DNA of 64,000 nt from a candidate division CPR3 bacterium GWF2_35_18 (GCA_001771135.1 MESW01000007.1:3563-67562); one strand, 5' to 3'. Shown: positions 1,868-55,714, numbered from the stretch's first letter. Numbers and translations are program-made. The notes: generated by a model from the letters alone, not told the origin.

Positions 1868-2009
1868 ATATAAAAACTTTTTATGTTAACAAAATAATAA
1901 TAACATTAATTTAGAAGATCACTTTACTATTGTCAACAAAAATATTAAATTATAAATAGCAGAATTATCTCAATATTTTAGCCTAATAATAAAAATGGAG
2001 AAGAGTAAA

Positions 2010-2975: not shown

Positions 2976-2987
2976 AGTAGTTTAAAG

Positions 2988-7708: not shown

Positions 7709-8308
7709 ATGTACCACCAAATTCTAAAACTTAAATTTGCTATTCTGTTACTTTTTCTTATTATATTTGTTAGTGTAGTTGTTTTCTATCTTTTTTCCCA
7801 TCGGAAACAGAGTATTGATAATCAAGAGATAGTTTTATCGGAGAGTGTTGATTATCAATACAATGAAGAAACTGATAAAAAGATATTAATTGTTGACATA
7901 TCTGGGCAAATTCTTAATCCTGGGGTTTATGAAATGAGTGAAGGTGATAGGGTCATAGATCTTATTACTAGATCAGGGGGAATTACCATAGAAGCAGATA
8001 AAAGCTATATTGAAAAGCATTTGAATCAAGCCGCTCAACTCATAGATGGTCAAAAGATCTATATTCCTAAAGAAGGCGAAAATTTACTCCAAAATGATAA
8101 TTCTAGTTTTGGTAACCAAAATAGTCAAGGAAAAGTGAGTATAAATTATGGTTCGGCTACGGATTTGGATTCTTTACCTGGTATTGGAGAGAAAAGAGCC
8201 TCTAGTATTATAAAAAATCGTCCTTATGCTTCTATAGAGGAATTATTGCTGCGTAAAATAATTCCTCAATCTGTATTTGAGGATATTAAAAATGACATAT
8301 CTCTTTGA
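7709..8308 (+). CDS. comEA: ComEA-like DNA-binding competence protein (N-terminal TM, SLBB-like region, C-terminal helix-hairpin-helix)
   Basis: TM LKFAILLLFLIIFVSVVVFYLF; C-terminal HhH INYGSATDLDSLPGIGEKRASSIIKNRPYASIEELL. Confidence 0.8.
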   Translation: MYHQILKLKFAILLLFLIIFVSVVVFYLFSHRKQSIDNQEIVLSESVDYQYNEETDKKILIVDISGQILNPGVYEMSEGDRVIDLITRSGGITIEADKSYIEKHLNQAAQLIDGQKIYIPKEGENLLQNDNSSFGNQNSQGKVSINYGSATDLDSLPGIGEKRASSIIKNRPYASIEELLLRKIIPQSVFEDIKNDISL

Positions 8309-9776
8309 AAAATATTCATTATTATTTATTTTTCTCTTAGGTTTATTATTGGGAATAATCTCTTATGAATTATTAATATTTTTTTATGTCCTAATTTCTA
8401 TTATTTTCATTTTAATATTGTATACATTTTTTATTATCAGAAAATATATTAAATTGCCAATAATATTTTTAATGTCTATTTTACTTGGTTTTTTTAGAAA
8501 CGATTTGTCAAAATATGATATTAGCAGGGATAGTTTTTCTTACTATTATAATCAAGAGATAGTAGTAACAGGCGATATAGTTGAAACCCCCGTTAATAAA
8601 CAAAATTCACAGGAAGTTGTAGTTGGGAATTTAAATATAATAAAATCAGATAATGAGATTATTCCCTTAAATGGAAAGATGTTGCTTCAAACAAGGAATT
8701 TTCCAGAATATTACTATGGTGAAGTACTACAAATAGAAGGAGAAATCACAGAACCAATCTCTTTAGGAGAATTTGATTATAAATCGTATTTAGAAAATCA
8801 GGGTATCTATGGAGTTGTAAGATTTCCTTATATTTCAATTATATCCGAAAATGGAGGAAATATTTTTTTAAGGGTTCTATTTAGTTTTCGTCTGCAAATT
8901 GAAAGTAATATTAACAGATTTTTCCCTGAACCAGAAGCTTCTTTACTTTCTGGAATTATCTTAGGAGTACAAAGAAATTTTCCTCCTTACTTTAAAGATA
9001 ATTTACAAAAAACGGGAACTACTCATATTGTGGTTGTTTCAGGAACAAATATTACTTTGGTAATGATGATATTTATAGTGTTTTCTCCATATCTAGGAAG
9101 AAGAAGAATGTTAACTTTTTCATTACTTGGAATATTTATCTATGTTTTTTTAGTTGGTTTTGATCCACCAGTATTACGAGCTTTAATAATGTTTATTCCT
9201 GCATATTTTAGTCAAATATATGGAAGAGATGGGGATGTTTTTACAAACTTTATTTTTGCCGCAGATGTTATTTTATTTATTAATCCACTATTAATTAATA
9301 ACATTTCTTTTCAGCTATCATTTTCTGCTACTTTAGGGCTGATTCTTGTTTTTCCTATTTTAAAGCAGCTTATTAGATTACCCGATGTAATTAGAGAAGG
9401 TTTATTAGTTTCTTTATCCGCACAAATTATGACTCTTCCAATTATTGTTTATAATTTTAAAGAGTATTCAACTGTTTCGCCACTTGTAAATTTATTGCTT
9501 ATTCCCATAGTTCCAATTCTTACTTGGGGTGGTTTTATATTTATTCCATTAAGTTTTTTAAACGGTATTATTACAAATATATATAGTTGGTTTTTATATA
9601 TACCGCTTACGTATTTTGTAAAGATCGTAAATTTTTTTGGTGATTTTCCTGGAGCGAGTATTTCTTTACAAAATATTTCGACATCTTTTGTTTTTTTTTA
9701 TTACATAGCTTTAACTTTTTTCATATTTTTAGGAAGATTCTTTAGTAAAGATAGTTTACTATGTATCAAGAAATAA
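8277..9776 (+). CDS. comEC: ComEC/Rec2 DNA-uptake channel, DUF4131 plus competence (membrane) domains
   Basis: Polytopic membrane protein; competence-domain motif TGTTHIVVVSGTNITLV (cf. HLLAISGLH); 32-nt overlap with comEA; probable start at the second Met. Confidence 0.8.
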   Translation: MRILKMTYLFEKYSLLFIFLLGLLLGIISYELLIFFYVLISIIFILILYTFFIIRKYIKLPIIFLMSILLGFFRNDLSKYDISRDSFSYYYNQEIVVTGDIVETPVNKQNSQEVVVGNLNIIKSDNEIIPLNGKMLLQTRNFPEYYYGEVLQIEGEITEPISLGEFDYKSYLENQGIYGVVRFPYISIISENGGNIFLRVLFSFRLQIESNINRFFPEPEASLLSGIILGVQRNFPPYFKDNLQKTGTTHIVVVSGTNITLVMMIFIVFSPYLGRRRMLTFSLLGIFIYVFLVGFDPPVLRALIMFIPAYFSQIYGRDGDVFTNFIFAADVILFINPLLINNISFQLSFSATLGLILVFPILKQLIRLPDVIREGLLVSLSAQIMTLPIIVYNFKEYSTVSPLVNLLLIPIVPILTWGGFIFIPLSFLNGIITNIYSWFLYIPLTYFVKIVNFFGDFPGASISLQNISTSFVFFYYIALTFFIFLGRFFSKDSLLCIKK

Positions 9777-10618
9777 TCAGTTTTATAAAAAAATACCAGA
9801 AATTTCTATTAATATTTATTTTCATGATTCTATCTTTGGTTATTCTATATTTTTGTCAGACACCGGATGGTCTTTTGCATATTATTTTTTATGATGTAGG
9901 AGAAGGAGATGGAATACTTATTAAAACACCGACAGGAGAGGTAGTTCTTATTGACGGTGGACCGAATGAACAGATTATTTACAGCATATCTAATGATCTT
10001 TCGATTTTTAAACGAGAAATTGATGTCGGAATAGTATCTCATCCTCACGCTGATCATTTAATCGGTTTTATTGAAGTTTTCAGACGTTTCTATTTTAAAT
10101 CTATTTTTATTAATGATTTAGAATATCAAACCTCTGAAGTGGAGGCTTTAAAAGATGAGTTGGGAAAAAATGATAAGATTTCTAAAGAATTAGTAGCTGG
10201 TCAAAATATTCAGATGGGAGAAATATCTTTAAGAACAATTTGGCCAGAATTAGACACTCATTGTATTGATGATATTAACGAATGTTCAATAGTTTTGAGG
10301 CTTGATTACCGTGACTTTTGTGTTTATTTTATGGGAGATGTTAATAATGAAGTGCAAGGAGAAATGAGGAATCTAAAACAATGTGAGATAGTAAAAATTG
10401 CGCATCAAGGATCAAAAAACGCTATTGACGAAAGTTTTATTAAAAAAGTAATGCCAAAAATTGGAATAATTTCTGTGGGAAAAAATAATTATGGTCATCC
10501 ATATCCAGAAACTCTTAAATTACTTGAGTTAAATAAAATTAAGATATTTCGGACCGATGAGTTTGGAGATATTGAAATTATTTCCGATGGTAAAAAATAT
10601 TACATTCTTAATAGGTAA
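9761..10618 (+). CDS. ComEC C-terminal metallo-beta-lactamase domain encoded as a separate ORF
   Basis: HPHADHLIGF (HxHxDH), later H in IAHQGS; overlaps previous ORF by 16 nt in a different frame. Confidence 0.75.
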   Translation: MYQEIISFIKKYQKFLLIFIFMILSLVILYFCQTPDGLLHIIFYDVGEGDGILIKTPTGEVVLIDGGPNEQIIYSISNDLSIFKREIDVGIVSHPHADHLIGFIEVFRRFYFKSIFINDLEYQTSEVEALKDELGKNDKISKELVAGQNIQMGEISLRTIWPELDTHCIDDINECSIVLRLDYRDFCVYFMGDVNNEVQGEMRNLKQCEIVKIAHQGSKNAIDESFIKKVMPKIGIISVGKNNYGHPYPETLKLLELNKIKIFRTDEFGDIEIISDGKKYYILNR

Positions 10619-20366: not shown

Positions 20367-21386
20367 ATGTTTCATTTTAACCTCGTTCGTCGTATTGGCA
20401 TAGACCTTGGAACAGCAAATTCTTTAGTTTTTATCCCAGGAGAAGGAATTGTTTTAAATGAACCGACGGTTGTTGCTATTACTCATGATGATAACAAAGT
20501 TGTAGCTGTCGGAAATGAGGCCAAAGAGATGCTTGGTCGTACTCCTGAGAACATCATTGCTTCTCGTCCTATGCGTGACGGCGTAATTGCTGATTATATG
20601 ATTATTGAGTCAATGTTACGGTATTTTATCAATAAGGTTATGGGTAAAGTTAAAATTACAAAACCTGAAGTAATGATTTGTGCTCCAGCAGGGGTAACTT
20701 CAGTTGAAAGAAGAGCAGTCTTAGATGCTACTTTATCTGCAGGAGCAAAAACAGCCTATTTAATTGATGAGTGTTTAGCTGCTGCAATTGGTGCAAGAAT
20801 GCCTATTGGAGATCCTTCAGGTAATTTTATAGCAGATATTGGAGGAGGAACAACGGAAGTGGCGATTATTTCTTTAGGAGGAATTGTTGTGAATAATACT
20901 GTAAGAGTTGGAGGAAACAAGCTAGATGAAGCCATTGCTTCATCTATTCGGAGAAAGTATAACTTAATTGTGGGTTATCAGATGTCCGAAAAGATTAAGA
21001 TTGAAATTGGAAGTGCGACTCACATGACTAAAGAGAAGAAAATGGAAATAAAAGGGCGAGACTCAGTAAACGGTCTTCCCAAAAGTATTACAATTACTTC
21101 TTCGGAAGTTACTGAAGCGTTGGCTTTACCTCTAAAAAGTATTGTGGGTGCAATTAAAACTGTTCTAGAAAATACTCCTCCGGAGCTTGCCTCCGATATT
21201 ATCGATAATGGTCTTGTGATGACAGGAGGAACCTCTTTACTTAGGAATATTGATCAACTTTTGACTCGCGAAACAGGAGTTCCTTGTTTAGTAGCTGATG
21301 ATCCCTTAAATTGTGTGGCTGTCGGAACAGGGATAGCTTTAGAAAACTTGGATCATTACAAACGTAACATTACCAGAAAAGGATAA
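20367..21386 (+). CDS. mreB: Actin-like MreB paralog (solitary, not linked to mreCD)
   Basis: RIGIDLGTANSLVF, actin ATPase fold motifs DIGGGTTEVAI, GGTSLLRNI. Confidence 0.85.
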   Translation: MFHFNLVRRIGIDLGTANSLVFIPGEGIVLNEPTVVAITHDDNKVVAVGNEAKEMLGRTPENIIASRPMRDGVIADYMIIESMLRYFINKVMGKVKITKPEVMICAPAGVTSVERRAVLDATLSAGAKTAYLIDECLAAAIGARMPIGDPSGNFIADIGGGTTEVAIISLGGIVVNNTVRVGGNKLDEAIASSIRRKYNLIVGYQMSEKIKIEIGSATHMTKEKKMEIKGRDSVNGLPKSITITSSEVTEALALPLKSIVGAIKTVLENTPPELASDIIDNGLVMTGGTSLLRNIDQLLTRETGVPCLVADDPLNCVAVGTGIALENLDHYKRNITRKG

Positions 21387-28048: not shown

Positions 28049-29626
28049 ATGAATTTTTTTTCTAACCCTCCAGTTATTAGTATTAAAGATTATGTCTTAA
28101 AGGATATTATTTGGAAGAATCACGTTACAGGAGAATCCAAAAAGATAAAAAGATTTTTTAACGGATATGATAAAGGTCTTCTAAAGGCTAATTTATCTGA
28201 TAAGTATTGGGCTTTGATTATAAAAAACTGTGATTTTGTTAAAAAAGAGCTTGAAGGAAGGGGTGGATTTTTTTATAGTAATTTTCATATTCTCCCAGAA
28301 AATCGAAGTCAATTTGACTCTGTTTATCCGATATCAGACAACCCAATATCCTTTAAAACAGTATTTGTGAGTGGGTTTCTCTTTCCTCAAGATCAAATAA
28401 TAAACATTGAGGGTGGATTTTACATTAAAGGTGAGAAATCGCCTTCCTTGGAGGAACTAACTGAACAGCATATTCCACAAGAACATTATCCCACACTACT
28501 TTTTAATTTAGGTTATTACTATACCAAACAACTTCTCAATGAAATAGATTATGGGTATAATAAGGTAAGAAGAAGTAAACATTTAGATAAGGAAATATTA
28601 GAAAGTGATTGTTTACCTTTTTTAGGTGGTTCTGTATGGAAAAAATCTGACATATTAGTTGTTAATCCGCCTTTATTTAACAAGTCTGTGATACTTTTTA
28701 GCAAAGAAGGAAAGATATTGATAATTAAAAACTGGAAGCTAGAAGAAGGTTCTGTCGAAATTCTAGGGAAATTTTTATCTTGGAAGAAAGAAGATGTTAA
28801 CAACTTCAATTCAGATAGTGATATTCAGATTTTTACTCCTTTTATAGACAATAAAAATGCTTCATTATCGGAGAAGTATAAAAACTATAATGTTTTTGTT
28901 GGAAGTGGGAGAGTTAATTTCTTAATTATTTCCAAAGGAACTGGAAAGAATCCTGAATCATACATAGTGAAAATAAAGAAGGGAAAGATCTTGATGCCTT
29001 CGATGGGAATGGTAATTTCTTTAGATGAGAATTTCTTTACGCAAAATTTTAAAGGGAATTTTTCTGATTTCGATGAGAGTGGATTTATCAAATCAGAAAC
29101 TCCTCTTAAAGTTTATTTCAAAGTTGGTGTCCCTATAGATATGAATTCTTATGATATTTCCTTTGGTTATGGAGGTTTTTTACCTCTAGTGTTAAATGGA
29201 AATGATTTTACGGAATCTCCAGATGAACTAGAAAAGTTAATGTTTGACCAAGGATTTTTCCATCCATTTTCCAGGCAGTCTCAAGAAACTCCTATTGAAA
29301 AACCTTATGAAAGGGAACCACGCGCAGTTTTTGTCGTCACAGAAAATAGTGATAATAAAGAGGAATATGGATTTTTCTCATTCTCAGGTAGATATGAAAA
29401 CTCTATTGGAATAAGTCTTTTCGAAATAGTTCCACTTTTAAAACAAATATTAAAGACTAGAAAGATTAAATTTGTGATACACTTAGATAGTGGATCTGCG
29501 GTAAAATTAATGTATTTACAAAATAAGCAGAATGTTAGAATATTAAATTTAACCGCTTTGTCCATGCGTAGTTTTACTGGAGAATATACAGAAAATGTAT
29601 ATAACTTGATTAACTTTTCTGTTTAA
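28049..29626 (+). CDS. Hypothetical 525-aa soluble protein embedded in glycosyltransferase operon (no motif recognised)
   Basis: ORF track; same strand, 27-nt gap upstream and 7-nt gap downstream; no TM or signal peptide evident. Confidence 0.4.
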   Translation: MNFFSNPPVISIKDYVLKDIIWKNHVTGESKKIKRFFNGYDKGLLKANLSDKYWALIIKNCDFVKKELEGRGGFFYSNFHILPENRSQFDSVYPISDNPISFKTVFVSGFLFPQDQIINIEGGFYIKGEKSPSLEELTEQHIPQEHYPTLLFNLGYYYTKQLLNEIDYGYNKVRRSKHLDKEILESDCLPFLGGSVWKKSDILVVNPPLFNKSVILFSKEGKILIIKNWKLEEGSVEILGKFLSWKKEDVNNFNSDSDIQIFTPFIDNKNASLSEKYKNYNVFVGSGRVNFLIISKGTGKNPESYIVKIKKGKILMPSMGMVISLDENFFTQNFKGNFSDFDESGFIKSETPLKVYFKVGVPIDMNSYDISFGYGGFLPLVLNGNDFTESPDELEKLMFDQGFFHPFSRQSQETPIEKPYEREPRAVFVVTENSDNKEEYGFFSFSGRYENSIGISLFEIVPLLKQILKTRKIKFVIHLDSGSAVKLMYLQNKQNVRILNLTALSMRSFTGEYTENVYNLINFSV

Positions 29627-29633
29627 TATCTAA

Positions 29634-31193
29634 ATGCCTAACTCCAAAATTAAGAAATTAAAAATTTTATTTGTAACGTCCGAAGTTGCTCCTCTCTCAA
29701 AAGTGGGTGGACTAGCTGACGTCTGTTGGTCTTTACCGAGGGAGTTAATTAAACTAGGCCACGATGTTCGTATTTTTACTCCTAAGTATGGAAGTATTGA
29801 AGAGGAAAAATATAGCATCAAATATTATTTAAAAGGTTTGAAAGTTTCTACATCTAAAGAAGACATTATTTGTAACATAAAACAGTGTTTAATTCCTGGC
29901 AATATAAAGGTTTATTTGCTAGAAAACATGGAGTATTATGAAAAAAGAGCTAATGTTTATGGTTATTCTGATGATAGTAGACGTTGGTATCTATTATCAA
30001 AACTAGTGCTGGAATTTTTGAAAGCAGAAGATTGGACTCCAGATATTATTCACAATCATGATTGGATGACTGGATTTGCAAGCAACTTTTTAAGAACAGA
30101 ATACAAAAAAGATAAAAAATTAAATAAAATAGCTACACTATTTACAATACATAATATCGAGATGCAAGGTCAATTTAATTATTGGGACCAGAAAGAATCA
30201 GAGAAAGATGACGGTAAAAAAAATATTACAGATTTGTATGCAAAAGAAGTTATTGGTAGTAATGGTGTTAAAAGAGGTATTATTCACTCAGATATTGTTT
30301 CTTCAGTCTCTGAAAATTATACAAGAGAAATTATGACTCCAGAATATGGTGCAGGTTTGGATAAACTGATGAGAGAAGAAAGAATGAAGTTATTCGGAGT
30401 TATTAATGGGCTTGATTACAATGTTTTTAATCCTTCTACAGATCCAGATATTTGGGTAAATTATGATAGAAATAGTTTAGAAAAGAAAACCAAGAATAAA
30501 CTAAAATTTCAACAAGAGTTTGGATTAGATCAAGATCCAGATGTTCCTTTGCTTGGATTTGTCGGAAGGTTTACAAAGCAGAAAGGCTTAAGTTTAATAA
30601 AAGAGGTTCTTGAGATATTGATTAAAGATCTCCATTTCCAATTTGCGATAGTAGGAGGAAGTGGTGAACAGGAATATCAACAATATTTTTATGAACTAAT
30701 GAAAAAATATCCCCACAAAATAGGTGGTCATCTAATGGTAAGTAAAATTATCGGTCAGCAGATATATGCTGCATCTGATATTTTCTTATATCCGTCACTT
30801 TTTGAACCTTGTGGTTTAGCTCATCTAATAGCCATGAAGTATGGTAGTGTTCCAGTGGTTCATAAAACAGGAGGTCTTGCGGATACTGTTTTAGATTTTG
30901 ATCCAAATACATTCGAAGGAAATGGTTTTGTATTTGAAGATTTTAACCAAAGATCTTTTATGATTCAGATTGTTCGGGCTATTGAGAATTTTAAGCACAA
31001 AAATAGTTGGAAAAAATTGCAGAGAAAACTGATGGGATTAGATTTTTCATGGAAAAATTCAGCAATACAATATATTGATTTGTATAATAAAGCAATAGAG
31101 AGGCATAAAAGATGGTTGACTAAAGAAGGTTTAATCAAGGCAAGATTTCCAGAAGAAGTTTCTGGAATTCACACGATTGATCCTTCTCGATAA
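29634..31193 (+). CDS. Glycogen/starch-synthase-like glycosyltransferase (GT5, GlgA family)
   Basis: N-terminal KxGGL motif SKVGGLADVCWSLPREL; C-terminal HKTGGLADTV. Confidence 0.8.
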   Translation: MPNSKIKKLKILFVTSEVAPLSKVGGLADVCWSLPRELIKLGHDVRIFTPKYGSIEEEKYSIKYYLKGLKVSTSKEDIICNIKQCLIPGNIKVYLLENMEYYEKRANVYGYSDDSRRWYLLSKLVLEFLKAEDWTPDIIHNHDWMTGFASNFLRTEYKKDKKLNKIATLFTIHNIEMQGQFNYWDQKESEKDDGKKNITDLYAKEVIGSNGVKRGIIHSDIVSSVSENYTREIMTPEYGAGLDKLMREERMKLFGVINGLDYNVFNPSTDPDIWVNYDRNSLEKKTKNKLKFQQEFGLDQDPDVPLLGFVGRFTKQKGLSLIKEVLEILIKDLHFQFAIVGGSGEQEYQQYFYELMKKYPHKIGGHLMVSKIIGQQIYAASDIFLYPSLFEPCGLAHLIAMKYGSVPVVHKTGGLADTVLDFDPNTFEGNGFVFEDFNQRSFMIQIVRAIENFKHKNSWKKLQRKLMGLDFSWKNSAIQYIDLYNKAIERHKRWLTKEGLIKARFPEEVSGIHTIDPSR

Positions 31194-31254: not shown

Positions 31255-32703
31255 GTGAAAGTTTTATTTGTGACTTCTGAGTGTTATCCTTTTATAAAAG
31301 TTGGAGGACTTGCAGATGTGGCTGGATCTTTGCCAAAAGCGATGAGCAGATTAGGTGTTGAAGTGACAATTGCGATGCCATATTATAAGAACATAGAGTT
31401 ATCTGAAAAATATATATCTAAAGTAGATGGAGAAATGACTTTTACTTTTGGAGATAAAGAAGAACATTTAAATCTTTATAGAACATTCTATCCAGGAACT
31501 CACCTTCCAGTATTATTATTCAGGAATGAGACTTATATTAAAGATGAAGTATATCCTAAAATACATGATAAGTCTTTAAGTCAATTCGTTTTTTTCTCCA
31601 GAGCAATTTTGAAATTTTTAAAAACAGGAGAGCTTAAGTATGATCTTTTACATCTTAATGATTGGCCTACGGCAATTATTGCGGGATTACTCAAAACAGA
31701 GTATAGGGTTCAACCCGTCTTAAGTCAACTTGCTACAATTCTTACAATACATAATTTAGGTCCTCAGGGTATAGCTAAACTTTCAATACTAGATAGTTTG
31801 GAGATAAATAGATATTCTTTAAAAACACTCGATTGGGACGCTCAGGATAAAAATATCGACTTACTTCTTCAAGGGATTGTTAATGCAGATTTGATTAACA
31901 CAGTTTCTCCAACCTATGCAAAAGAAATTATGACAAAGGAATATGGAGAAGGTTTGGATCAAGTCATGAAGTCTCGTGAGGGAAGAGTTTTTGGAGTTCT
32001 AAATGGAATTGATTATTCAGTTTTTAATCCTCAAACAGATTCAGCTATTCATTTCCGCTATGATGTTAATAATTGGGATGCAGGGAAAGCTCAGAATAAA
32101 TTATTTTTACAGAAAAAATTACATCTTAAAGAAGACGTAAAAATTCCTTTAATCGGAATGGTTACCCGTTTGAGCAATCAAAAAGGAATAGATCTTATCC
32201 TCGAAAAGATGGATGAAATTGTAAAAAAGAACATACAAGTTGTAATTTTAGGTACAGGAAGTGAGTCTTATGAAGCAAAACTTTCCAAGTTTAATGATAA
32301 ATATCCAGATATGGTGAGTATGATTTTAAAGTTTGATCAGTCTCTTTCTCGCCAAATTTTTGCAGGAACAGATATGTTTTTAGTTCCTTCGAAGTTTGAA
32401 CCGTGTGGATTGACACAACTTATTGCAATGAAATATGGGAGTATGCCAATTGTAAGAGCTACAGGAGGCCTTAAAGATACCGTTACGAAAGGAAAAACTG
32501 GTTTTGTTTTTGAGGAGTATTCAAGTAAGTCATTATTGCAGTCGATTGCAGATGCGGTAACGGTTTATAAAAATACTACAAAGTGGCGTGAACTTGTCCA
32601 GGAAGCAATGAGACAGGATTTTTCTTGGAACAACTCTGCTAAGGAATACTTAAAACTATATCAGAAAGCACTTAAATTTAAACAGGAAGAAAATTTTATC
32701 TAA
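31255..32703 (+). CDS. Second GlgA-family GT5 glycosyltransferase (GTG start, SD AGGAGA)
   Basis: IKVGGLADVAGSLPKAM; RATGGLKDTV; ~35-40 percent identity to upstream paralog by eye. Confidence 0.8.
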   Translation: MKVLFVTSECYPFIKVGGLADVAGSLPKAMSRLGVEVTIAMPYYKNIELSEKYISKVDGEMTFTFGDKEEHLNLYRTFYPGTHLPVLLFRNETYIKDEVYPKIHDKSLSQFVFFSRAILKFLKTGELKYDLLHLNDWPTAIIAGLLKTEYRVQPVLSQLATILTIHNLGPQGIAKLSILDSLEINRYSLKTLDWDAQDKNIDLLLQGIVNADLINTVSPTYAKEIMTKEYGEGLDQVMKSREGRVFGVLNGIDYSVFNPQTDSAIHFRYDVNNWDAGKAQNKLFLQKKLHLKEDVKIPLIGMVTRLSNQKGIDLILEKMDEIVKKNIQVVILGTGSESYEAKLSKFNDKYPDMVSMILKFDQSLSRQIFAGTDMFLVPSKFEPCGLTQLIAMKYGSMPIVRATGGLKDTVTKGKTGFVFEEYSSKSLLQSIADAVTVYKNTTKWRELVQEAMRQDFSWNNSAKEYLKLYQKALKFKQEENFI

Positions 32704-37087: not shown

Positions 37088-37351
37088 CTATAAGAAGGTG
37101 ATCATATTAAAAAGATAATCTACAATTGTTACTGTCACACTAATAAAAACACTAGTAGCAATAACTACTAAAGTTAAATTATAAGTTTTCTTCGATGATG
37201 GCCAAGTTACTTTTTTTGTTTCAATAATAACTTCCTCAAAATATTTTTTTATTGGCCCGAAAGGGTTTTTGATATTTCTTTTTTGTCTTTTCATGGTTAG
37301 TATATAATGGAAAACTGGAGTATTATATACCCAAATTCCTCTAAATTGCAA
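37088..37351 (-). CDS. secE: Preprotein translocase SecE (likely true start at internal MKRQKRN, ~37297)
   Basis: Single C-terminal TM LTLVVIATSVFISVTVTIVDYLF preceded by KKVTWPS; position upstream of nusG. Confidence 0.75.
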   Translation of the reverse strand: MQFRGIWVYNTPVFHYILTMKRQKRNIKNPFGPIKKYFEEVIIETKKVTWPSSKKTYNLTLVVIATSVFISVTVTIVDYLFNMITFL

Positions 37352-37508
37352 GTTATTAATGCTATTTTTATTAAATATGTAATATTAGTTTGATATCTTA
37401 ATTAAATTTTAACAATTTGTAAAGGATATATTGTCTCTGATCTTTTTTATGATACAATAAATTGATATAGATTGTTGTTGAAACAAGCTTACATTTACGT
37501 TTTATCTT

Positions 37509-37862
37509 ATGAATCAAACTAACTTTCCTCAAAACAGTTTAAGGCCTTCTTCAGAGGTTTTTCAGAATCCCGAAAGAATAGGTGTTGATACTGTTGCAGT
37601 AAATTCAGAAGGAGTTTCCCGTATTTCTTCAAAAGAAGAACAACCTATGATTCAAAGTAAGCCTACAAATTTACTTGCGCATACTACACAGCAGCATTTA
37701 ACTGATAATGAGCAAACAAACAAAGTTTTTGCTAAAGATTCAAAAAACTTGACTCCTAAAGAAATTTCGTTTGGAATTAAACAGCCTTCAAATAGTAGTA
37801 TGTTTTGGTTTATGATGATGTCAAGATGGGAAATTGAACGTCAGAAAAGGAGAAAACTGTGA
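37509..37862 (+). CDS. Hypothetical low-complexity (Q/S/N/T-rich, predicted disordered) protein, stop overlaps start of downstream ATPase
   Basis: ORF track only; no SD; may be non-coding. Confidence 0.3.
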   Translation: MNQTNFPQNSLRPSSEVFQNPERIGVDTVAVNSEGVSRISSKEEQPMIQSKPTNLLAHTTQQHLTDNEQTNKVFAKDSKNLTPKEISFGIKQPSNSSMFWFMMMSRWEIERQKRRKL

Positions 37863-40222
37863 ATCTTGCAATTACATCTTTTAGTAGTAACCAGATCTTA
37901 TTTATAATCGTTATTACACTATTATTACTGGTTTTTATGCTTACCCTTTTTTTAGGAGGATTTGCTTTTATATCGAGTTTTCTTAAAAACTTAAATAGAA
38001 AACAAAAATCACTATCGCTAATATGTGTAAAAATTCAGATTCCCAAGGGAAACGAAATTGAGATTGAGAAGGCAGAGCAGATGTTTGCAGGTCTTTATGG
38101 AATATATCAACGTGGTTTTGCTGGAGCTTTTTCTGCTCAAGCAGTTATTAGTTTTGAAATTGTTGCTCGTAATAAAAAAATAGAGTTTTATGTTCTAGTT
38201 CAAAAAGATATTTACAATTTAGTAGAAAAACAAATTCATAGTGCGTATTCTGAGGCAGAGATTGAACAGATTGAGTTTCCAAATATTTTTAATCATCCTG
38301 GTAAAGTCTTTTTCTCTGAACTTCGTTTCTCAAATCAACCATACTTTCCGATAAAAAAATATAAAGATCTCCCAAATGATTCTTTGAATCAGATTACTTC
38401 AGCAATGAGTAAGCTTCAGGAAGATGAAGCGATGATTTTACAGATATTAATTTCTCCGGTGAGTGATTCTTGGAGAGGAAGAGGGAAGAGATATGTTGCT
38501 TCTGTTAATGCGCGTTCTCAACAAACTGATTCACAAGGGAATCTTGTTCCCAAAGTTTCTGTCGATACCAGTTTAACTCAAGGCGTTGAGGAAAAAGTGG
38601 CAAAAGTGGGGTTTGAAACTGTAATTAGGATTGTATCAGTTGGATCTAATACCCAAATTGCTCGTTCCAATATAGACAACTTAATTGGAGCCTTTGAGCA
38701 GTTTAGATTACCTTCCTATAATGGGTTTTTAAGACGCCGATTCATTTTTAATAAGAAAAAATTCGCGCGAGATTTTATTTATAGATACTTTCCCATTAGC
38801 GGAAAGAGGATGATTTTGAATACGGAAGAGTTAGCAACTATTTTTCATTTTCCAAATAAAAAGGTAGAAACTCCACATATTGACTGGTTGTTATCCAAAA
38901 AAGCCGCTTCTCCCGGTTTTCTTCCTTTAGAAGGGCTTTATCTTGGAAAAAGTAAATTCCGAGGAGTAGAAACAAAAGTATTTCAAACCCTTCCAGATCG
39001 CAGGAGACATACCTACATTATAGGACAAACTGGTGTTGGTAAATCTGAATTTTTGAAATCATTAGCGGTTCAAGATATAAAAGAAGGTAAAGGAGTCGCT
39101 TTTATTGATCCTCATGGAGATGCGGTTGAAGATATTTTAACAAAAATTCCACCCGAGAGAGCGGAAGATGTGATTTATTTCGACCCGGGAGATACCGAAA
39201 GACCAATGGGATTGAATATTTTGGAAGCAAAAAGTGAGGATCAGAAACATCTGATTGTTAACTCATTTATAGCACTACTTTATAAATTGTATGATCCGGG
39301 GCACACTGGTATTATGGGTCCACGACTTGAGCGTGCCATTCGTAACGTTATGCTTACTGCGATGAGCGAAGAGGGGAATTCGATGGTTGAAGTTTTGAGA
39401 TTACTCATAAGTCCTGAATTTGCCAAAGAAAAAGTAGCCTTAGTTAAAGATCCTCTTGTGAAGCAGTATTGGACTGAAGAGCTTGCTCAGACTTCTGATT
39501 TCCATAAGTCAGAGACATTAGGATATTTTGTTTCCAAATTTGACCGTTTTGTTACTGAGAAACTAATGCGTAATATTATTGGACAATCTTATTCAGCTTT
39601 CGATTTTCGAGAAGTTATGGATCAATCAAAAATATTACTCGTAAATCTTTCCAAGGGAAAAATCGGAGAAGAGAACTCCAACTTTTTAGGGTTAATATTA
39701 GTACCAAGATTACTTGTTGCAGCAATGAGTCGTTCCGCTGATACGACTGAAGAAGAGCGCAAGGATTTTTTTCTATATGTTGATGAGTTCCAAAACTTTG
39801 CTACTCCAGATTTTGCTACAATTCTTTCAGAGGCCAGAAAATTTAGACTTTCACTAGTTGTTGCAAATCAATATATTGCACAAATGGATGAACATGTTAA
39901 AAATGCTATTTTTGGTAATGTAGGAACGACTGTTGCCTTTAGAGTTGGTGTAAATGATGGAGAGTTTATGCAGAATAGATTTGATCCAGTTTTTAACAAG
40001 ACGGATCTTATGAATATCCCTGTTGGCAATGTTTATATTCAGATGCTAATAAATGGAGCCCCTTCTTCACCATTCTCTATGGCAGTAGATTGGCAACATA
40101 TTATGAACACTCCCAAAAATAAAGAAGTTGCAGATATGATTAAACAGTTATCACGTCTTAAATATGGTCGAGATCGAGATGTTGTTGAAGCGGAGATTAG
40201 AATGCGGGCAAAATTGGAATAA
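37859..40222 (+). CDS. Membrane-anchored P-loop ATPase of the VirB4/VirD4 (TraG/TrwB, DUF87 AAA-like) type IV secretion / DNA-translocation family
   Basis: N-terminal TM ILFIIVITLLLLVFMLTLFLGGFAFISSF; Walker A IIGQTGVGKSEF followed by AFIDPHGDAVEDIL (DPxGE-type motif of TraG/DUF87); Walker B FFLYVDEFQNF ~230 aa later; RKFRLSLVVANQYIAQM; GTG start. Confidence 0.55.
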   Translation: MNLAITSFSSNQILFIIVITLLLLVFMLTLFLGGFAFISSFLKNLNRKQKSLSLICVKIQIPKGNEIEIEKAEQMFAGLYGIYQRGFAGAFSAQAVISFEIVARNKKIEFYVLVQKDIYNLVEKQIHSAYSEAEIEQIEFPNIFNHPGKVFFSELRFSNQPYFPIKKYKDLPNDSLNQITSAMSKLQEDEAMILQILISPVSDSWRGRGKRYVASVNARSQQTDSQGNLVPKVSVDTSLTQGVEEKVAKVGFETVIRIVSVGSNTQIARSNIDNLIGAFEQFRLPSYNGFLRRRFIFNKKKFARDFIYRYFPISGKRMILNTEELATIFHFPNKKVETPHIDWLLSKKAASPGFLPLEGLYLGKSKFRGVETKVFQTLPDRRRHTYIIGQTGVGKSEFLKSLAVQDIKEGKGVAFIDPHGDAVEDILTKIPPERAEDVIYFDPGDTERPMGLNILEAKSEDQKHLIVNSFIALLYKLYDPGHTGIMGPRLERAIRNVMLTAMSEEGNSMVEVLRLLISPEFAKEKVALVKDPLVKQYWTEELAQTSDFHKSETLGYFVSKFDRFVTEKLMRNIIGQSYSAFDFREVMDQSKILLVNLSKGKIGEENSNFLGLILVPRLLVAAMSRSADTTEEERKDFFLYVDEFQNFATPDFATILSEARKFRLSLVVANQYIAQMDEHVKNAIFGNVGTTVAFRVGVNDGEFMQNRFDPVFNKTDLMNIPVGNVYIQMLINGAPSSPFSMAVDWQHIMNTPKNKEVADMIKQLSRLKYGRDRDVVEAEIRMRAKLE

Positions 40223-40223
40223 G

Positions 40224-40817
40224 TTAGTCTTTAAGGAAATCAATTATCCTTTTCCCAAAAATAGTTAAAGCAGCTCCGATTGTAAGAAGATGTTCTCCAG
40301 TGGGGAGAGTAATATTTTGGGCTCCGATAATAGTTGCTGTATTACCCGGAACTAATTCATCCCCGAGTAATGGTCTAATCGTCATAATTCTTTTTTTATC
40401 TATTTCGGAAAGGTTATCAATCCTTTTTTCGCATAATTCAACGGATTCAGCAAAGAGTTTACTGGATTTAGTTCTTGTTCCATAAGAGCGAAAACCTTTT
40501 TGCATACCTTTTCTTAAACGTCCACAGACATTTACTATTTTATATACATTGTTATTTTTATAAAATGCATTCAAAACAGTACTTCCACCAGCACTGCATC
40601 CTACAAGAGAGACTTTATTCTGATTTTGAGATAACTTAGAAATAAGATTTAATAGTTTAGAAAGAGATTCTGTAAAATCTGTATTCTTTTTGTGCCAGTT
40701 AAAAGGATAAATTAATGGTTGAAGATTATATTTACGCCAAAACGAAGTAGCGATTTTTACCTTAGTTGTATCGTTACTAAGACCAGGAATAATAATAACA
40801 TAATGGACTTGAGACAT
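40224..40817 (-). CDS. Alpha/beta-hydrolase-fold protein (GxSxG lipase/esterase-like)
   Basis: VIIIPGLSND ... nucleophile elbow VGCSAGG; 197 aa. Confidence 0.45.
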   Translation of the reverse strand: MSQVHYVIIIPGLSNDTTKVKIATSFWRKYNLQPLIYPFNWHKKNTDFTESLSKLLNLISKLSQNQNKVSLVGCSAGGSTVLNAFYKNNNVYKIVNVCGRLRKGMQKGFRSYGTRTKSSKLFAESVELCEKRIDNLSEIDKKRIMTIRPLLGDELVPGNTATIIGAQNITLPTGEHLLTIGAALTIFGKRIIDFLKD

Positions 40818-41483: not shown

Positions 41484-41647
41484 ACCGTATATCTTTCAGA
41501 ATGCCTTTACTTTAAGTATATACCAGAATATTTTTATATATACTTAAAAAAGTTAGATATACCGAGAAAAACGTGATTATTATATACTTATCTTCCTGTG
41601 ATTTGCAACAATCTTAGGTATTATAAGGTTAATGAAATTTCCCCCAT

Positions 41648-43924: not shown

Positions 43925-44998
43925 TTGAGTTTTAATGTAAATTTTATGTTTGATTTTTTTTGGGATTTAGTTACTTATGACATCGGAATAGATCTTGGCA
44001 CTGCAAATACAAAAGTGCATGTGCGAAATAAGGGAATTATTTTCCGAGAACCTTCGGTAGTTGCTCAGCATAAGAAGACAAAACAGATATTAGCAATTGG
44101 AACTGAAGCAAAAAGGATGCTGGGAAAAACTCCAACGACTATTGTGGCAATTAAACCTCTTTCTGACGGAGTTATTTCTGATTTTGACATTACAGAACAG
44201 ATGTTGCGTTATTTTATCCGTAAAGTTCACGACGTAAAATCAACAATTCCTAAAATACCTCGACCGCGACTCGTAATTGGAGTTCCTTCAGAAATTACGG
44301 AAGTGGAAAGGAAAGCAGTGGTTGATGCAGCTATGAAGGCAGGAGCCAGAAATGTTTTTTTAATTGAAGAACCAATGGCTTCAGCAATCGGAGCGGGTCT
44401 TGCCATAGAAGAACCAAATGGGAATATGATTATTGATATAGGAGGGGGAACGACGGAGATTGCTATCATTTCTTTGAGCGGTATTGTCGTAAGTCGTTCT
44501 ATTAGAGTTGCTGGTCAAGAGATGGATGATGAGATTGTAAATTTTGCGAAAAAAAATTATAACTTGCTTTTGGGAGAACGAACAGCCGAAGATATCAAAA
44601 TTGAAATAGGATCTGCCTATACGAATTCGGGTGTCGACAATAAAAAGGTTATCATGAGAGGAAGAGATTTAGTCTCGGGTTTACCGAAGGCAATTTCTAT
44701 CACGGCAGAAGAAGTTCGAAAAGCAATAGGCGGTCCCATAAGTATAATTATTTTGGCTGTTAAAGAAGTTATCGAAGAAACTCCTCCTGAGCTTCTTGCA
44801 GATATCATGAAACAGGGTATTACCCTTTCTGGAGGAGGATCATTAATTAGAGGAATTGATAAACTAATAGCTGAAAAAACAGGTGTTCCAGTCAGGGTTG
44901 CAGATGATCCCTTAACTGGTGTTGTTAGGGGAACTGCAGCCGTTTTAGAAGAACTAGACCTGTTAGAGAAGGTAAAAATTGCAGGAAGAGGTCGTTAG
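43925..44998 (+). CDS. mreB: Rod-shape protein MreB (in mreBCD-mrdA operon)
   Basis: DIGIDLGTANTKVH, DIGGGTTEIAI, GGGSLIRGI. Confidence 0.9.
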   Translation: MSFNVNFMFDFFWDLVTYDIGIDLGTANTKVHVRNKGIIFREPSVVAQHKKTKQILAIGTEAKRMLGKTPTTIVAIKPLSDGVISDFDITEQMLRYFIRKVHDVKSTIPKIPRPRLVIGVPSEITEVERKAVVDAAMKAGARNVFLIEEPMASAIGAGLAIEEPNGNMIIDIGGGTTEIAIISLSGIVVSRSIRVAGQEMDDEIVNFAKKNYNLLLGERTAEDIKIEIGSAYTNSGVDNKKVIMRGRDLVSGLPKAISITAEEVRKAIGGPISIIILAVKEVIEETPPELLADIMKQGITLSGGGSLIRGIDKLIAEKTGVPVRVADDPLTGVVRGTAAVLEELDLLEKVKIAGRGR

Positions 44999-54784: not shown

Positions 54785-55714
54785 ATGAATGTTACTTTAG
54801 AAAATCTATTAGAAGCAGGTGTTCACTTTGGGCATCAAATTAAAAGATGGAATCCCAAGATGAAAAACTTTATTTACACTCATCGAAATGGGGTTCATAT
54901 TATTGATTTATCACAAACCCTGGAAATGATGCAAAAAGCCGCTTCCTATATTGAAAAAGAAGTGGCTAGTGGGAAAAATATAATCTTTGTGGGAACAAAA
55001 AGACAAGCTAAGGATATCATTGTAAAAGAGGCCGTTGCCTGTGGAGCAATGTACATTAATAACCGTTGGCCAGGAGGTTTAATCACAAATTTTCCTTCCG
55101 TAAAAAATACCATTTCTAAGTATAATAAAATGTTAAAAATGAAAGAGTCTAAAGAGACTGAGAAAATGACGAAAAAAGACCTTTCTGTTTTTAATAAAGA
55201 CTTGGAAAGAAAAGAAAAGCTTGTTGGGGGTATAAAAAATCTAACCGATAGACCAGATCTGCTTTTTGTTCTTGATGTTAAAAGAGAGATTAATGCTATT
55301 AGAGAAGCAAAACAAAAAGACATTCCTGTTATTTCAATTTGTGATACCAATTCGAATCCTGATCTTGTTACTATTGCAATTCCGGGGAATGATGACGCCA
55401 TAAAATCAATTACTCTTTTAGTTTCTTTTATTGCTGATGCGGTAGAAAAAGGTTTGAGCAAGAGATCGAAAGAAGTGAAAACAAAGATTGTTAAAGATTC
55501 TCCGAAGTTGTCAGAACTTAAAAATCATAAAAAAGATGTAGAATTAGATCATGTTGGAATTTCAGATGTTGTACTAGCAAAGTTAAAAGAAGAAGGAATT
55601 GAAACTTTATCTCAGCTTGAAGATAAAAAAGATGAGGAGTTACTGGCAATGAAAGGTTTGGGTCAAAAGGCAGTTACCAAACTAAAAGAAGACGTTAAAA
55701 ATTATAAAAAGTAA
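54785..55714 (+). CDS. rpsB: Ribosomal protein S2 with ~60 aa C-terminal extension containing a helix-hairpin-helix
   Basis: LLEAGVHFGHQIKRWNPKM...; extension GISDVVLAKLKEEGIETLSQLEDKKDEELLAMKGLGQKAVTKLKED. Confidence 0.9.
   Translation: MNVTLENLLEAGVHFGHQIKRWNPKMKNFIYTHRNGVHIIDLSQTLEMMQKAASYIEKEVASGKNIIFVGTKRQAKDIIVKEAVACGAMYINNRWPGGLITNFPSVKNTISKYNKMLKMKESKETEKMTKKDLSVFNKDLERKEKLVGGIKNLTDRPDLLFVLDVKREINAIREAKQKDIPVISICDTNSNPDLVTIAIPGNDDAIKSITLLVSFIADAVEKGLSKRSKEVKTKIVKDSPKLSELKNHKKDVELDHVGISDVVLAKLKEEGIETLSQLEDKKDEELLAMKGLGQKAVTKLKEDVKNYKK

What the first reader, a model, noticed from the sequence alone, without database searches (positions are those of the whole stretch)
37859..40222. Membrane-anchored DUF87/TraG-type ATPase with an unusually long pre-Walker-A region
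The sequence carries Walker A IIGQTGVGKSEF directly followed by a DPHGD motif (DPxGE-like, as in VirD4 / TraG / HerA), Walker B LYVDEFQNF about 230 residues later, and RKFRLSLVVANQYIAQM. About 340 residues separate the N-terminal transmembrane segment from Walker A, which is more VirB4-like in spacing than VirD4-like. No other T4SS components (VirB6, VirB3, relaxase) lie nearby. A standalone member of this family next to competence genes elsewhere in the window (comEA, comEC, dprA) could be a DNA-uptake or export motor rather than part of a conjugation system. The GTG start overlaps the stop of the upstream disordered ORF, suggesting translational coupling.
Basis: partly seen in the sequence, partly recalled or inferred. 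Interest (0 to 1): 0.6.

Follow-up and report, generated by a model that had tools for sequence, protein, structure and literature searches.

The report
Orphan conjugation-type coupling ATPase with partner
This is a real, strongly conserved gene for a membrane-anchored motor ATPase descended from the "coupling proteins" of Gram-positive conjugation systems; candidate-phyla-radiation (CPR) bacteria keep it as a chromosomal two-gene unit with a small disordered partner protein and no conjugation genes nearby, and what it moves is still unknown.

Summary
ORF 37859-40222 (+) encodes 787 aa with one N-terminal TM helix, about 345 residues before Walker A, the quoted motifs, and a GTGA start/stop overlap with the upstream ORF.

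**What it is**
- It is identical to a hypothetical protein of a candidate division CPR3 bacterium.
- It belongs to a family found across Patescibacteria, with 38-85% full-length identity.
- The whole protein is still a coupling protein (T4CP), not a VirB4. The family HMM aligns end to end with the T4CPs of Bacillus and Embleya conjugative clusters (E 1e-76 and 8e-79). It barely scores the VirB4s of those clusters.

**Context**
- The window holds only housekeeping genes.
- comEA, comEC and dprA lie 8-28 kb away and are never neighbours in 86 related loci, so the DNA-uptake idea has no support.

**New here**
- The upstream disordered ORF is a conserved partner with a C-terminal Trp/basic helix.
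- In 18 of 120 homologues it is fused to the ATPase, and all 18 fusions lack the TM helix.

The function is inferred. It is most likely a domesticated coupling ATPase that serves the CPR type IV secretion system or has been exapted to another role.

The parts
37431..37458 (+). Candidate sigma-70-type promoter (TTGTCT, 16 nt spacer, TACAAT, with TG extension) about 50 nt upstream of the partner ORF
   Evidence: This is a consensus match only; the number of promoter-like sites in the region is not above the shuffled expectation.
37509..37862 (+). Partner gene: a 117-aa polar, disordered-looking protein with a hydrophobic/basic C-terminal segment
   Evidence: The first 92 aa are 73% polar, charged, Gly or Pro. 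No Pfam or NCBIfam hit. A same-strand small ORF abuts the ATPase start in most of 86 related loci. The ORF is kept in close relatives at only 26-32% identity while the ATPase stays at 82-85%.
37755..37859 (+). Conserved C-terminal segment of the partner (TPKEISFGIKQPSNSSMFWFMMMSRWEIERQKRRKL): an EI...W...R..K motif
   Evidence: Alignment A4 has E85, I86, W100, R111 and K116 invariant. The motif HMM built from Microgenomates partners hits only ORFs directly upstream of the ATPase (or fused to it) among 4,023 ORFs. The window copy itself scores below significance (E 2.7).
37847..37852 (+). Shine-Dalgarno AAGGAG, 6 nt before the GTG start
   Evidence: Read directly from the sequence.
37859..37862 (+). 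GTGA overlap of the ATPase start codon with the partner's stop codon (translational coupling)
   Evidence: In related loci the gap between the two genes is mostly -28 to +30 nt.
37859..40222 (+). ATPase gene, 787 aa: TM helix, DUF8128 domain, then T4CP-type nucleotide-binding domain
   Evidence: AlphaFold2 model: mean pLDDT 89.9, pTM 0.77.
37895..37981 (+). Single N-terminal transmembrane helix (residues 13-41), followed by the basic stretch KNLNRKQK (predicted cytoplasmic side)
   Evidence: Hydropathy scan. The model has a helix at residues 10-43. A single TM helix is conserved in the unfused homologues.
37991..38914 (+). N-terminal cytoplasmic domain (residues 45-352), Pfam DUF8128 (PF26449), with a VirB4-N-terminal-domain-like fold
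38921..40219 (+). RecA-like nucleotide-binding domain of the VirD4/VirB4/HerA clade (residues 355-787)
39017..39052 (+). Walker A (IIGQTGVGKSEF)
   Evidence: G389, T391, G392, G394 and K395 are invariant.
39107..39121 (+). DPHGD motif after the strand that follows Walker A
   Evidence: D417, P418 and H419 are invariant. It aligns with TrwB DPNGD.
39236..39622 (+). All-alpha insertion (residues 460-588, eight helices) between Walker A and Walker B; counterpart of the T4CP all-alpha domain
   Evidence: Secondary structure of the model. The Pfam TrwB_AAD_bind match spans it.
39773..39799 (+). Walker B (LYVDEFQNF)
   Evidence: L639, Y640, D642, E643, F644, Q645 and N646 are invariant.
39836..39886 (+). 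RKFRLSLVVANQYIAQM: conserved Arg/Lys and the ANQ sensor strand
   Evidence: R660, K661, N670, Q671 and Q675 are invariant.

Best explanation
The locus is a two-gene operon. The 117-aa disordered partner is 37509-37862; the 787-aa ATPase is 37859-40222.

**Identity.** The ATPase is a domesticated type IV coupling protein (T4CP, VirD4/TraG/TrwB family). It belongs to the subclass found in conjugative elements of monoderm bacteria, which carries a VirB4-N-terminal-domain-like module (DUF8128) in front of the nucleotide-binding domain.

**Proposed mechanism.**
1. The partner is translated first, and ribosomes re-initiate at the overlapping GTG. (Shown in the sequence.)
2. The ATPase inserts into the membrane through one N-terminal helix, with DUF8128 and the ATPase domain in the cytoplasm. 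(Inferred from the basic residues after the helix.)
3. It assembles into a ring like TrwB or VirB4 and hydrolyses ATP with its invariant Walker A/B residues. (Inferred from homology.)
4. The partner's conserved C-terminal Trp/basic helix docks at the membrane-proximal N-terminus of the ATPase. The long disordered arm is free to recruit, or to be, a substrate. (Inferred from natural fusions.)

**Function.** No relaxase or T4SS gene accompanies the operon, and it is a vertically inherited core gene of Patescibacteria. The ATPase therefore most likely no longer serves plasmid transfer. It most likely acts as the substrate-receptor and energising ATPase for the relaxase-less chromosomal T4SS of these bacteria, encoded elsewhere, or for another envelope channel.

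The identity is well supported. The cellular role is inference.
For: **Family identity**
- Pfam TrwB_AAD_bind, TraG-D_C and DUF87 all score above their cut-offs.
- PDB sequence hits are TrwB (4e-6) and DotL (1e-5), with no VirB4.

**Closest non-CPR relatives are working T4CPs**
- tblastn against plasmids finds 26-34% identity.
- In B. subtilis plasmid NZ_CP154917 and Embleya plasmid NZ_CP108778, the relative lies directly upstream of a Replic_Relax protein.
- Those clusters carry their own VirB4 (AAA_10, 8e-116), plus PrgI and NlpC/P60.
- The CPR family HMM aligns end to end with the Embleya and Bacillus T4CPs (8e-79 and 1e-76). The VirB4s of the same clusters score 5e-4 and 0.39.
- The DUF8128 HMM hits the N-termini of those T4CPs (5.5e-33 and 1.6e-9).

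**N-domain fold**: it matches the VirB4 N-terminal domain.

**Core, vertically inherited gene**
The best 80 come from all major Patescibacteria lineages.
- Neighbours are housekeeping genes and differ between lineages, but are the same within CPR3.
- GC content is unremarkable and there are no att-like repeats.

**Partner**
- A small ORF with an adjacent or overlapping end precedes the ATPase in most loci.
- The motif HMM is specific to that position.
- 18 of 120 homologues are partner-ATPase fusions, and all 18 lack the TM helix.

**Literature**
- 5,713 VirD4-type T4CP homologues occur in 2,918 of 3,035 Patescibacteria genomes, and only 148 lie near virB4.
- Relaxases are rare in these genomes.
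- The authors say exaptation 'cannot be ruled out' (PMC12102498).
Against: - No T4SS component is seen in the window or reported near most such genes, so coupling to the T4SS is not shown.
- In Southlakia epibionticum the T4SS genes are essential for epibiotic growth, but the T4CP homologue is not (PMC12102498). Wang et al. found no recognisable coupling protein in that T4SS cluster (PMC10633639).
- T4CP homologues are present in more genomes (96%) than VirB4 (80%). This hints at a role that does not need the T4SS.
- I could not show that the T4CP hits counted in that paper are this DUF8128 family.
- Curated NCBIfam T4CP equivalogs score far below their cut-offs.
- The window's own partner ORF does not reach significance against the motif HMM (E 2.7). 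Its assignment rests on position and on alignment with close relatives.
- Oligomeric state, membrane topology and partner binding are all inferred. No complex model could be computed.
Confidence: 0.5

Rival explanations
1. An exapted, T4SS-independent motor. The ATPase and its partner would form an autonomous inner-membrane translocase, for example the cytoplasmic motor that pulls DNA in through ComEC, or an exporter or importer used in the episymbiotic lifestyle.
For: - The gene is orphaned from virB4 in nearly all genomes.
- It is more widespread than VirB4.
- It is non-essential where the T4SS is essential (PMC12102498).
- It forms a self-contained, conserved two-gene module with its own partner.
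- T4CPs are DNA-dependent translocases by ancestry (established knowledge of TrwB).
Against: - comEA, comEC and dprA are absent from the 6 kb flanking the gene in all 86 related loci.
- In the window they are 28 kb and 8 kb away, inside ordinary housekeeping neighbourhoods. dprA-topA is a common pair.
- Nothing in the sequence points to DNA rather than protein as the substrate.
Confidence: 0.2
2. A chromosome-segregation or dimer-resolution translocase acting like FtsK at the division site.
For: - A XerC/D-type recombinase lies just downstream in 22 related loci, and DivIC in 17.
- T4CPs and FtsK belong to the same superfamily.
Against: - The recombinase is convergently oriented and restricted to Microgenomates lineages.
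- There is no FtsK_SpoIIIE Pfam hit.
- The protein has no gamma/winged-helix domain.
- TM7x already has an annotated ftsK (PMC10768705).
- The T4CP homologue is non-essential in S. epibionticum.
Confidence: 0.07
3. It is really the VirB4 (assembly ATPase) of a type IV system, possibly a VirB3-VirB4-like fusion, rather than a coupling protein.
For: - The N-domain fold matches only the VirB4 N-terminal domain.
- A small gene sits directly upstream, as virB3 does before virB4.
Against: - There are no hits to the VirB4 Pfam families (AAA_10, CagE_TrbE_VirB, TraC_F_IV) at E <= 0.1.
- The family HMM scores the true VirB4s of two conjugative clusters at 5e-4 and 0.39, but their T4CPs at 1e-76 to 8e-79.
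- Patescibacteria have a separate, monophyletic VirB4 inside their T4SS clusters (PMC12102498).
- The upstream partner has no TM helices, unlike VirB3.
Confidence: 0.05
4. A remnant or active part of an integrated conjugative or mobilisable element inserted next to tRNA-Trp.
For: - The two genes and a hydrolase-like ORF interrupt the usually contiguous tRNA-Trp/secE-nusG-rplKAJL arrangement.
- The closest non-CPR relatives are plasmid T4CPs.
Against: - There is no integrase, relaxase or att-like repeat.
- Composition looks native.
- The position next to secE is the same in relatives at 68% and 82% identity.
- The family is a near-universal single module across the phylum, with housekeeping neighbours.
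Confidence: 0.03
5. The ATPase component of an anti-phage defence system (mad8, DndH/DptH or HerA type).
For: - PADLOC mad8 matches at 2.1e-17 over residues 381-706.
Against: - No other defence-system gene is nearby. The partner and the downstream ORF have no PADLOC hit.
- Neighbours are housekeeping genes.
- Phylum-wide vertical conservation at 38-85% identity is unlike a defence island.
Confidence: 0.03

Closest known systems
T4CPs of monoderm conjugative elements that carry a DUF8128 N-domain. Examples: the 885-aa 'DUF87 domain-containing protein' of B. subtilis plasmid NZ_CP154917 and the 812-aa 'type IV secretory system conjugative DNA transfer family protein' of Embleya plasmid NZ_CP108778.
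   Same: The architecture is the same from end to end: DUF8128 N-domain, then a T4CP nucleotide-binding domain with an all-alpha insertion. The family HMM aligns over profile positions 23-733 and 56-734 (8e-79 and 1e-76). The N-domain HMM scores 1.6e-9 and 5.5e-33.
   Different: Those genes sit in conjugation clusters, directly upstream of a Replic_Relax protein and near VirB4, PrgI and a cell-wall hydrolase. The window gene has none of these. It has a single TM anchor; none is predicted in the Bacillus protein. It is chromosomal and housekeeping-linked, and it is preceded by a conserved disordered partner that the plasmid genes lack.
TrwB (R388), VirD4 and DotL: canonical Gram-negative coupling proteins
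   Different: The canonical proteins have two TM helices and go straight into the nucleotide-binding domain. Here there is one TM helix plus a 300-aa VirB4-NTD-like domain. Sequence similarity is confined mostly to the Walker A region. No relaxosome or T4SS genes are linked.
VirB4 (TrwK of R388; T. pseudethanolicus VirB4 C-terminal domain)
   Different: There is no sequence-level VirB4 signature, and the family HMM does not recognise true VirB4s. VirB4 is encoded within T4SS clusters next to virB3; this gene is not.
'T4CP homologues' of Patescibacteria surveyed by Quinonero-Coronel et al. 2025 (PMC12102498)
   Same: VirD4-type ATPases present in about 96% of Patescibacteria genomes, almost never near virB4, without relaxases, and suggested to be possibly exapted. 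NCBI names for members of this family match that description.
   Different: That survey does not describe the DUF8128/VirB4-like N-domain, the conserved upstream partner or the fusions. I could not verify protein by protein that its hits are this family; the window's genome is not in the stored supplement.

Membership tests
Type IV coupling protein (VirD4/TraG/TrwB) | FtsK/HerA-superfamily nucleotide-binding domain with intact Walker A and B | tested here: met
Type IV coupling protein (VirD4/TraG/TrwB) | All-alpha domain inserted in the nucleotide-binding domain; family-specific sequence signature | tested here: met
   Eight-helix insertion at residues 460-588. Pfam TrwB_AAD_bind 30.7 bits (cut-off 20.5) and TraG-D_C 28.8 bits (cut-off 22).
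Type IV coupling protein (VirD4/TraG/TrwB) | Orthology to proteins that occupy the T4CP position (next to the relaxase, separate from VirB4) in conjugative clusters | tested here: met
   The family HMM scores 1e-76 and 8e-79 end to end against the T4CPs of the Bacillus and Embleya clusters, and 0.39 and 5e-4 against their VirB4s.
Type IV coupling protein (VirD4/TraG/TrwB) | N-terminal membrane anchor leading directly into the nucleotide-binding domain (canonical two-TM form) | tested here: not met
   One TM helix, followed by a 300-aa folded domain before the nucleotide-binding domain.
Type IV coupling protein (VirD4/TraG/TrwB) | Genetic linkage to a relaxase/oriT or to mating-pair-formation genes | tested here: not met
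   None in the 64-kb window. Neighbours in 86 loci are housekeeping genes. The literature reports 148 of 5,713 near virB4. The rest of the genome could not be examined.
Type IV coupling protein (VirD4/TraG/TrwB) | Passes curated equivalog models (NCBIfam TraD, VirD4-like CD1115, and others) | tested here: not met
   Best scores are 49.9 bits against a cut-off of 366, and 36.8 against 250.
Type IV coupling protein (VirD4/TraG/TrwB) | Substrate recruitment to a T4SS channel; hexameric DNA-dependent ATPase activity | not testable with these tools
   Requires biochemistry and genetics.
VirB4 | N-terminal domain plus C-terminal RecA-like domain | tested here: met
VirB4 | VirB4 sequence signature (Pfam AAA_10, CagE_TrbE_VirB, TraC_F_IV) | tested here: not met
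   No hit at E <= 0.1. True VirB4s are not recognised by the family HMM.
VirB4 | Encoded within a T4SS cluster beside virB3, virB6 and virB8 | tested here: not met
Pfam DUF8128 (PF26449)-containing proteins | Match to PF26449 | tested here: met
   The match is precomputed for the identical protein P0001 and for all 120 top homologues; it is named DUF8128. The local Pfam copy lacks the model. phmmer with residues 45-345 finds 1,757 cluster representatives, always at the protein's N-terminus.
FtsK/SpoIIIE | FtsK_SpoIIIE motor signature, gamma domain, multi-TM N-terminus | tested here: not met
HerA | N-terminal HAS-barrel; NurA or a defence-effector partner | tested here: not met
   The N-domain is alpha/beta and VirB4-NTD-like, not a barrel. 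DUF87 matches only residues 382-443. There is no NurA or effector neighbour.

The most novel reading that the evidence does not exclude
The DUF8128 coupling-type ATPase and its disordered, Trp-helix partner could form a Patescibacteria-wide translocation module that works without the type IV secretion system. It might be the missing cytoplasmic motor for DNA or other macromolecule uptake or export at the contact with the host cell. That would be a conjugation ATPase permanently recruited to a core cellular function. The mutually exclusive TM helix and partner fusion would mark two ways of attaching the motor to the membrane.
Probability: 0.2. Interest if true: 0.8.

Novelty: new variant of a known kind. 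Interest (0 to 1): 0.45.

Why it matters
Patescibacteria are a large share of bacterial diversity and depend on host cells, yet how they move macromolecules is poorly understood. Their T4SS is essential in the one genetically tractable species, but it lacks a recognised coupling protein and relaxase.

This gene family is a well-defined candidate for the missing ATPase, or for a repurposed one. The work here gives it:
- a clear evolutionary origin, in the T4CPs of monoderm conjugative elements;
- a domain interpretation, with DUF8128 as a VirB4-NTD-like fold;
- a previously unannotated obligate partner whose fusions point to a direct interaction.

Experiments can now be designed around these points. 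The result also shows that some coupling proteins keep a VirB4-like N-domain, which bears on how the two T4SS ATPase families diverged. The gene itself is already catalogued as a hypothetical protein and a Pfam DUF, and a 2025 survey counts T4CP homologues in this phylum. The advance is incremental rather than a new kind of system.

Tried and rejected
1. **Competence link.** I looked for comEA, comEC and dprA homologues within 6 kb in 86 loci and found none.
2. **Integrated element.** There are no att-like direct repeats. The only flanking repeat (D2, 30 nt at 77%) looks like two similar minus-strand promoters. There is no integrase.
3. **Defence system.** The PADLOC mad8 hit is a shared ATPase fold only, with no system context.
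4. **FtsK-like role.** XerC/DivIC adjacency is lineage-restricted and convergent, and structural similarity to FtsK is much weaker than to TrwB or VirB4.
5. **Partner family.** No Pfam family matched the partners or the frequent downstream gene c3. Partners from different lineages hardly align over their disordered parts.
6. **Partner upstream of the Bacillus plasmid T4CP.** None was found.
7. **afdb50 fold search.** The library was unavailable.
8. **The window's genome in the survey.** It is absent from the stored supplement of PMC12102498, so I could not learn whether this organism has VirB4.
9. **Literature on 'DUF8128'.** The search found nothing.
10. **Amphipathicity of the partner helix.** It is high in most lineages (hydrophobic moment 0.55-0.79) but low for the window copy (0.34) and for Saccharibacteria. 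'Amphipathic' therefore applies to the family, not clearly to this copy.
Full report
**Observation.** The ORF at 37859-40222 (+) is real and as described. It is 787 aa with a GTG start.
- The start overlaps the TGA of ORF 37509-37862 as GTGA. An AAGGAG sits 6 nt upstream.
- The quoted motifs lie at residues 387-398 (Walker A), 417-421 (DPHGD), 639-647 (Walker B) and 660-676.
- Hydropathy shows one TM segment, residues 13-41, and no other.
- The protein is 100% identical to hypothetical protein UR87_C0017G0002 of candidate division CPR3 bacterium GW2011_GWE2_35_7.
- It has more than 7,800 homologues (the search was cap-limited). The top 120 are 52-85% identical over the full length.
- In a 56-sequence alignment the catalytic residues are invariant.

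**Context in the window.** The window is ordinary Patescibacteria chromosome. It carries obg, leuS, comEA, a split comEC, argH/argG, argS, tmk, ndk, two mreB genes, glycosyltransferases, two glgA-like genes, rplL/J/A/K-nusG-secE, a tRNA cluster, fmt, mreBCD-pbp2, dprA-topA, thyA/folA, rpsB-tsf-frr, proS and dnaX.
- No VirB4, VirB6, VirB3 or relaxase family was detected.
- The two-gene unit and a 197-aa hydrolase-like ORF lie between secE and tRNA-Trp.
- GC content is unremarkable. There are no att-like repeats and no integrase.

**Family assignment.**
- Pfam gives TrwB_AAD_bind (residues 382-696), TraG-D_C and DUF87, all above their cut-offs. The first 360 residues get nothing in the local copy.
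- NCBIfam T4CP equivalogs match only partially and far below their cut-offs.
- A profile search of PDB sequences finds TrwB (4e-6) and DotL (1e-5) but no VirB4.
- The precomputed Pfam annotation of this protein and of all listed homologues includes PF26449, DUF8128.

**Structure.** An AlphaFold2 model built with the 56-sequence alignment is confident (pLDDT 89.9, pTM 0.77).
- Foldseek's top 14 hits are all TrwK chains, including constructs without the Hcp1 tag (1e-8 to 4e-6). The next hit is 4e-4.
- No RecA-like ATPase and no Hcp appears in those lists, so the match must be to the VirB4 N-terminal domain.
The N-terminal region is one domain of one protein, not a separate gene.

**It is nevertheless a coupling protein.** A tblastn of the nucleotide-binding domain against plasmids gives 379 records. 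The best are 26-34% identical, in Bacillus, Streptomyces/Embleya, Rhodococcus, haloarchaea and Sulfolobus.
- In B. subtilis plasmid NZ_CP154917 and Embleya plasmid NZ_CP108778, the relative (885 and 812 aa) sits directly upstream of a Replic_Relax protein.
- Those clusters also encode a separate VirB4 (AAA_10, 8e-116), PrgI/VirB3 and a cell-wall hydrolase. The relative therefore occupies the T4CP position.
- The HMM of the CPR family aligns end to end with these T4CPs (8e-79 and 1e-76). It scores the VirB4s of the same clusters at 5e-4 and 0.39.
- The DUF8128 HMM hits the T4CP N-termini at 5.5e-33 and 1.6e-9.
- So the 'DUF8128 + T4CP nucleotide-binding domain' architecture is not peculiar to CPR bacteria. 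It characterises a subclass of monoderm conjugative coupling proteins, and the CPR gene descends from that subclass.
- This agrees with the published inference that the Patescibacteria T4SS derives from monoderm conjugation machinery (PMC12102498).

**Distribution and synteny.**
- The best 80 cover Microgenomates lineages, Dojkabacteria, WWE3, Berkelbacteria, Saccharibacteria, Doudna-, Magasanik- and Uhrbacteria and Paceibacterota, at 38-57% identity.
- A few records carry other taxon labels but have the same neighbours, so they are probably mis-binned.
- The N-domain alone finds 1,757 cluster representatives, always at the N-terminus of proteins that are about 780-1,100 aa when complete.
- Across 86 loci the layout of TM helix, DUF8128 and ATPase is conserved. 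Saccharibacteria add a C-terminal extension.
- Neighbours are housekeeping genes and change between lineages: prfA/prmC and hisS; xerC-like and divIC; dnaX; gyrB; nrdJ; smpB; secE-nusG within CPR3.
- No competence gene is ever within 6 kb.
- This is the pattern of a vertically inherited core gene, not of a mobile element.

**The partner.** In most loci a small same-strand ORF ends within about 30 nt of the ATPase start.
- These proteins have a long, fast-evolving polar region and a conserved C-terminal helix.
- The helix motif differs by lineage:
  - Microgenomates/CPR3: 'S.(K/R)WLA.W..R.LK', preceded by 'LP.(T/S)..EI..G'.
  - Parcubacteria: 'IRDWLK.IPGVNRFFLEQEAKIK'.
  - Saccharibacteria: 'DLIEKEWV.KAK'.
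- An HMM of the Microgenomates motif, searched against all 4,023 ORFs of the loci, hits only ORFs in that upstream position or fused ATPases.
- The window's ORF scores below significance there (E 2.7). It does align with the upstream ORFs of close relatives, with E85, I86, W100, R111 and K116 invariant, at 26-32% identity where the ATPases are 82-85% identical.
- Eighteen of the 120 top homologues (844-938 aa) are natural fusions in which the partner, motif included, runs directly into DUF8128. All 18 lack the TM helix, whereas nearly all unfused homologues have it.
- This argues for direct physical cooperation. It also suggests that the Trp/basic helix can replace the membrane anchor.
- No Pfam family covers the partners.

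**Function.** Published work reports the following (PMC12102498; PMC10633639):
- VirD4-type T4CP homologues occur in 2,918 of 3,035 Patescibacteria genomes (5,713 proteins), and only 148 lie near virB4.
- VirB4 occurs in 2,417 of those genomes.
- Relaxases are rare.
- The T4CP homologue of S. epibionticum is non-essential, although its T4SS is essential and has no recognisable coupling protein in its cluster.

My best reading is a domesticated coupling ATPase that, with its disordered partner, recruits or energises transport through the relaxase-less T4SS encoded elsewhere. The main alternative is a T4SS-independent role. The identity is well supported; the role is inferred. Rivals are weighed in their own sections: DNA-uptake motor, FtsK-like segregation, true VirB4, integrated element and defence ATPase.

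**Verdict.** The gene is a member of a catalogued but functionally uncharacterised family. Relative to canonical coupling proteins it is a variant: it has a VirB4-NTD-like domain, it is orphaned and chromosomal, and it has an obligate disordered partner with TM-less fusions. Interest is moderate.

Noticed in passing
P0007, P0009, P0013, P0015, P0026, P0029, P0031, P0038, P0042, P0050, P0054, P0060, P0064, P0067, P0077, P0081, P0089, P0120; loci L007 5560-8301 and L011 233-2773: These are natural fusions of the disordered partner (with its Trp-helix motif) to DUF8128-ATPase. Every fused protein lacks the N-terminal TM helix that the unfused homologues have.
   Followed up: partly
L052 (819-aa and 858-aa genes in tandem); L055 (790-aa and 1073-aa genes about 2 kb apart): Two paralogues of the DUF8128-ATPase lie side by side in some genomes. 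This fits the roughly two T4CP homologues per genome reported in PMC12102498.
   Followed up: no
window 8277-9776 and 9761-10618: ComEC is split into two overlapping ORFs. One holds DUF4131 plus the Competence domain; the other holds the metallo-beta-lactamase domain. This is either a genuine split gene or a frameshift.
   Followed up: no
window 54785-55714: Ribosomal protein S2 (309 aa) carries a C-terminal extension that matches the RNA polymerase alpha C-terminal (helix-hairpin-helix) domain (Pfam RNA_pol_A_CTD, 3.6e-6).
   Followed up: no
window 37311-37340 and 41568-41597: A 30-nt repeat (77% identical) lies upstream of secE and of the tRNA-Thr/Tyr/Thr/Trp cluster, both on the minus strand. 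Each copy contains a TATAAT-like box (reverse complement), so these are probably two similar strong promoters, not att sites.
   Followed up: partly
window 37859-40222 (residues 381-706): The nucleotide-binding domain matches the PADLOC model mad8 (MADS defence system) at 2.1e-17, better than it matches Pfam TrwB_AAD_bind. This points to an unremarked relationship between that defence ATPase and this T4CP subclass.
   Followed up: partly
L090 7107-9785 (Rhodococcus ruber plasmid pYYL1.1): A 738-aa relative shares 31% identity over the nucleotide-binding domain but has an unrelated N-terminal 300 aa. It is followed by a DUF5663 gene and lies outside any recognisable conjugation cluster, so it is another orphan of this ATPase subclass.
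   Followed up: no
window 20367-21386 and 43925-44998; 29634-31193 and 31255-32703: There are two MreB paralogues, the second with mreC/mreD/pbp2. There are also two tandem glycogen-synthase-like genes.
   Followed up: no
window 800-3716 (three minus-strand ORFs of 355, 321 and 242 aa) and 28049-29626 (525 aa): These sizeable ORFs have no Pfam match at E <= 0.001.
   Followed up: no
window 40224-40817 (-): A 197-aa ORF converges on the ATPase, with stop codons 1 nt apart. It has only faint alpha/beta-hydrolase similarity. An unannotated 180-aa ORF occupies the same position in relative L087, but the two were not compared.
   Followed up: no
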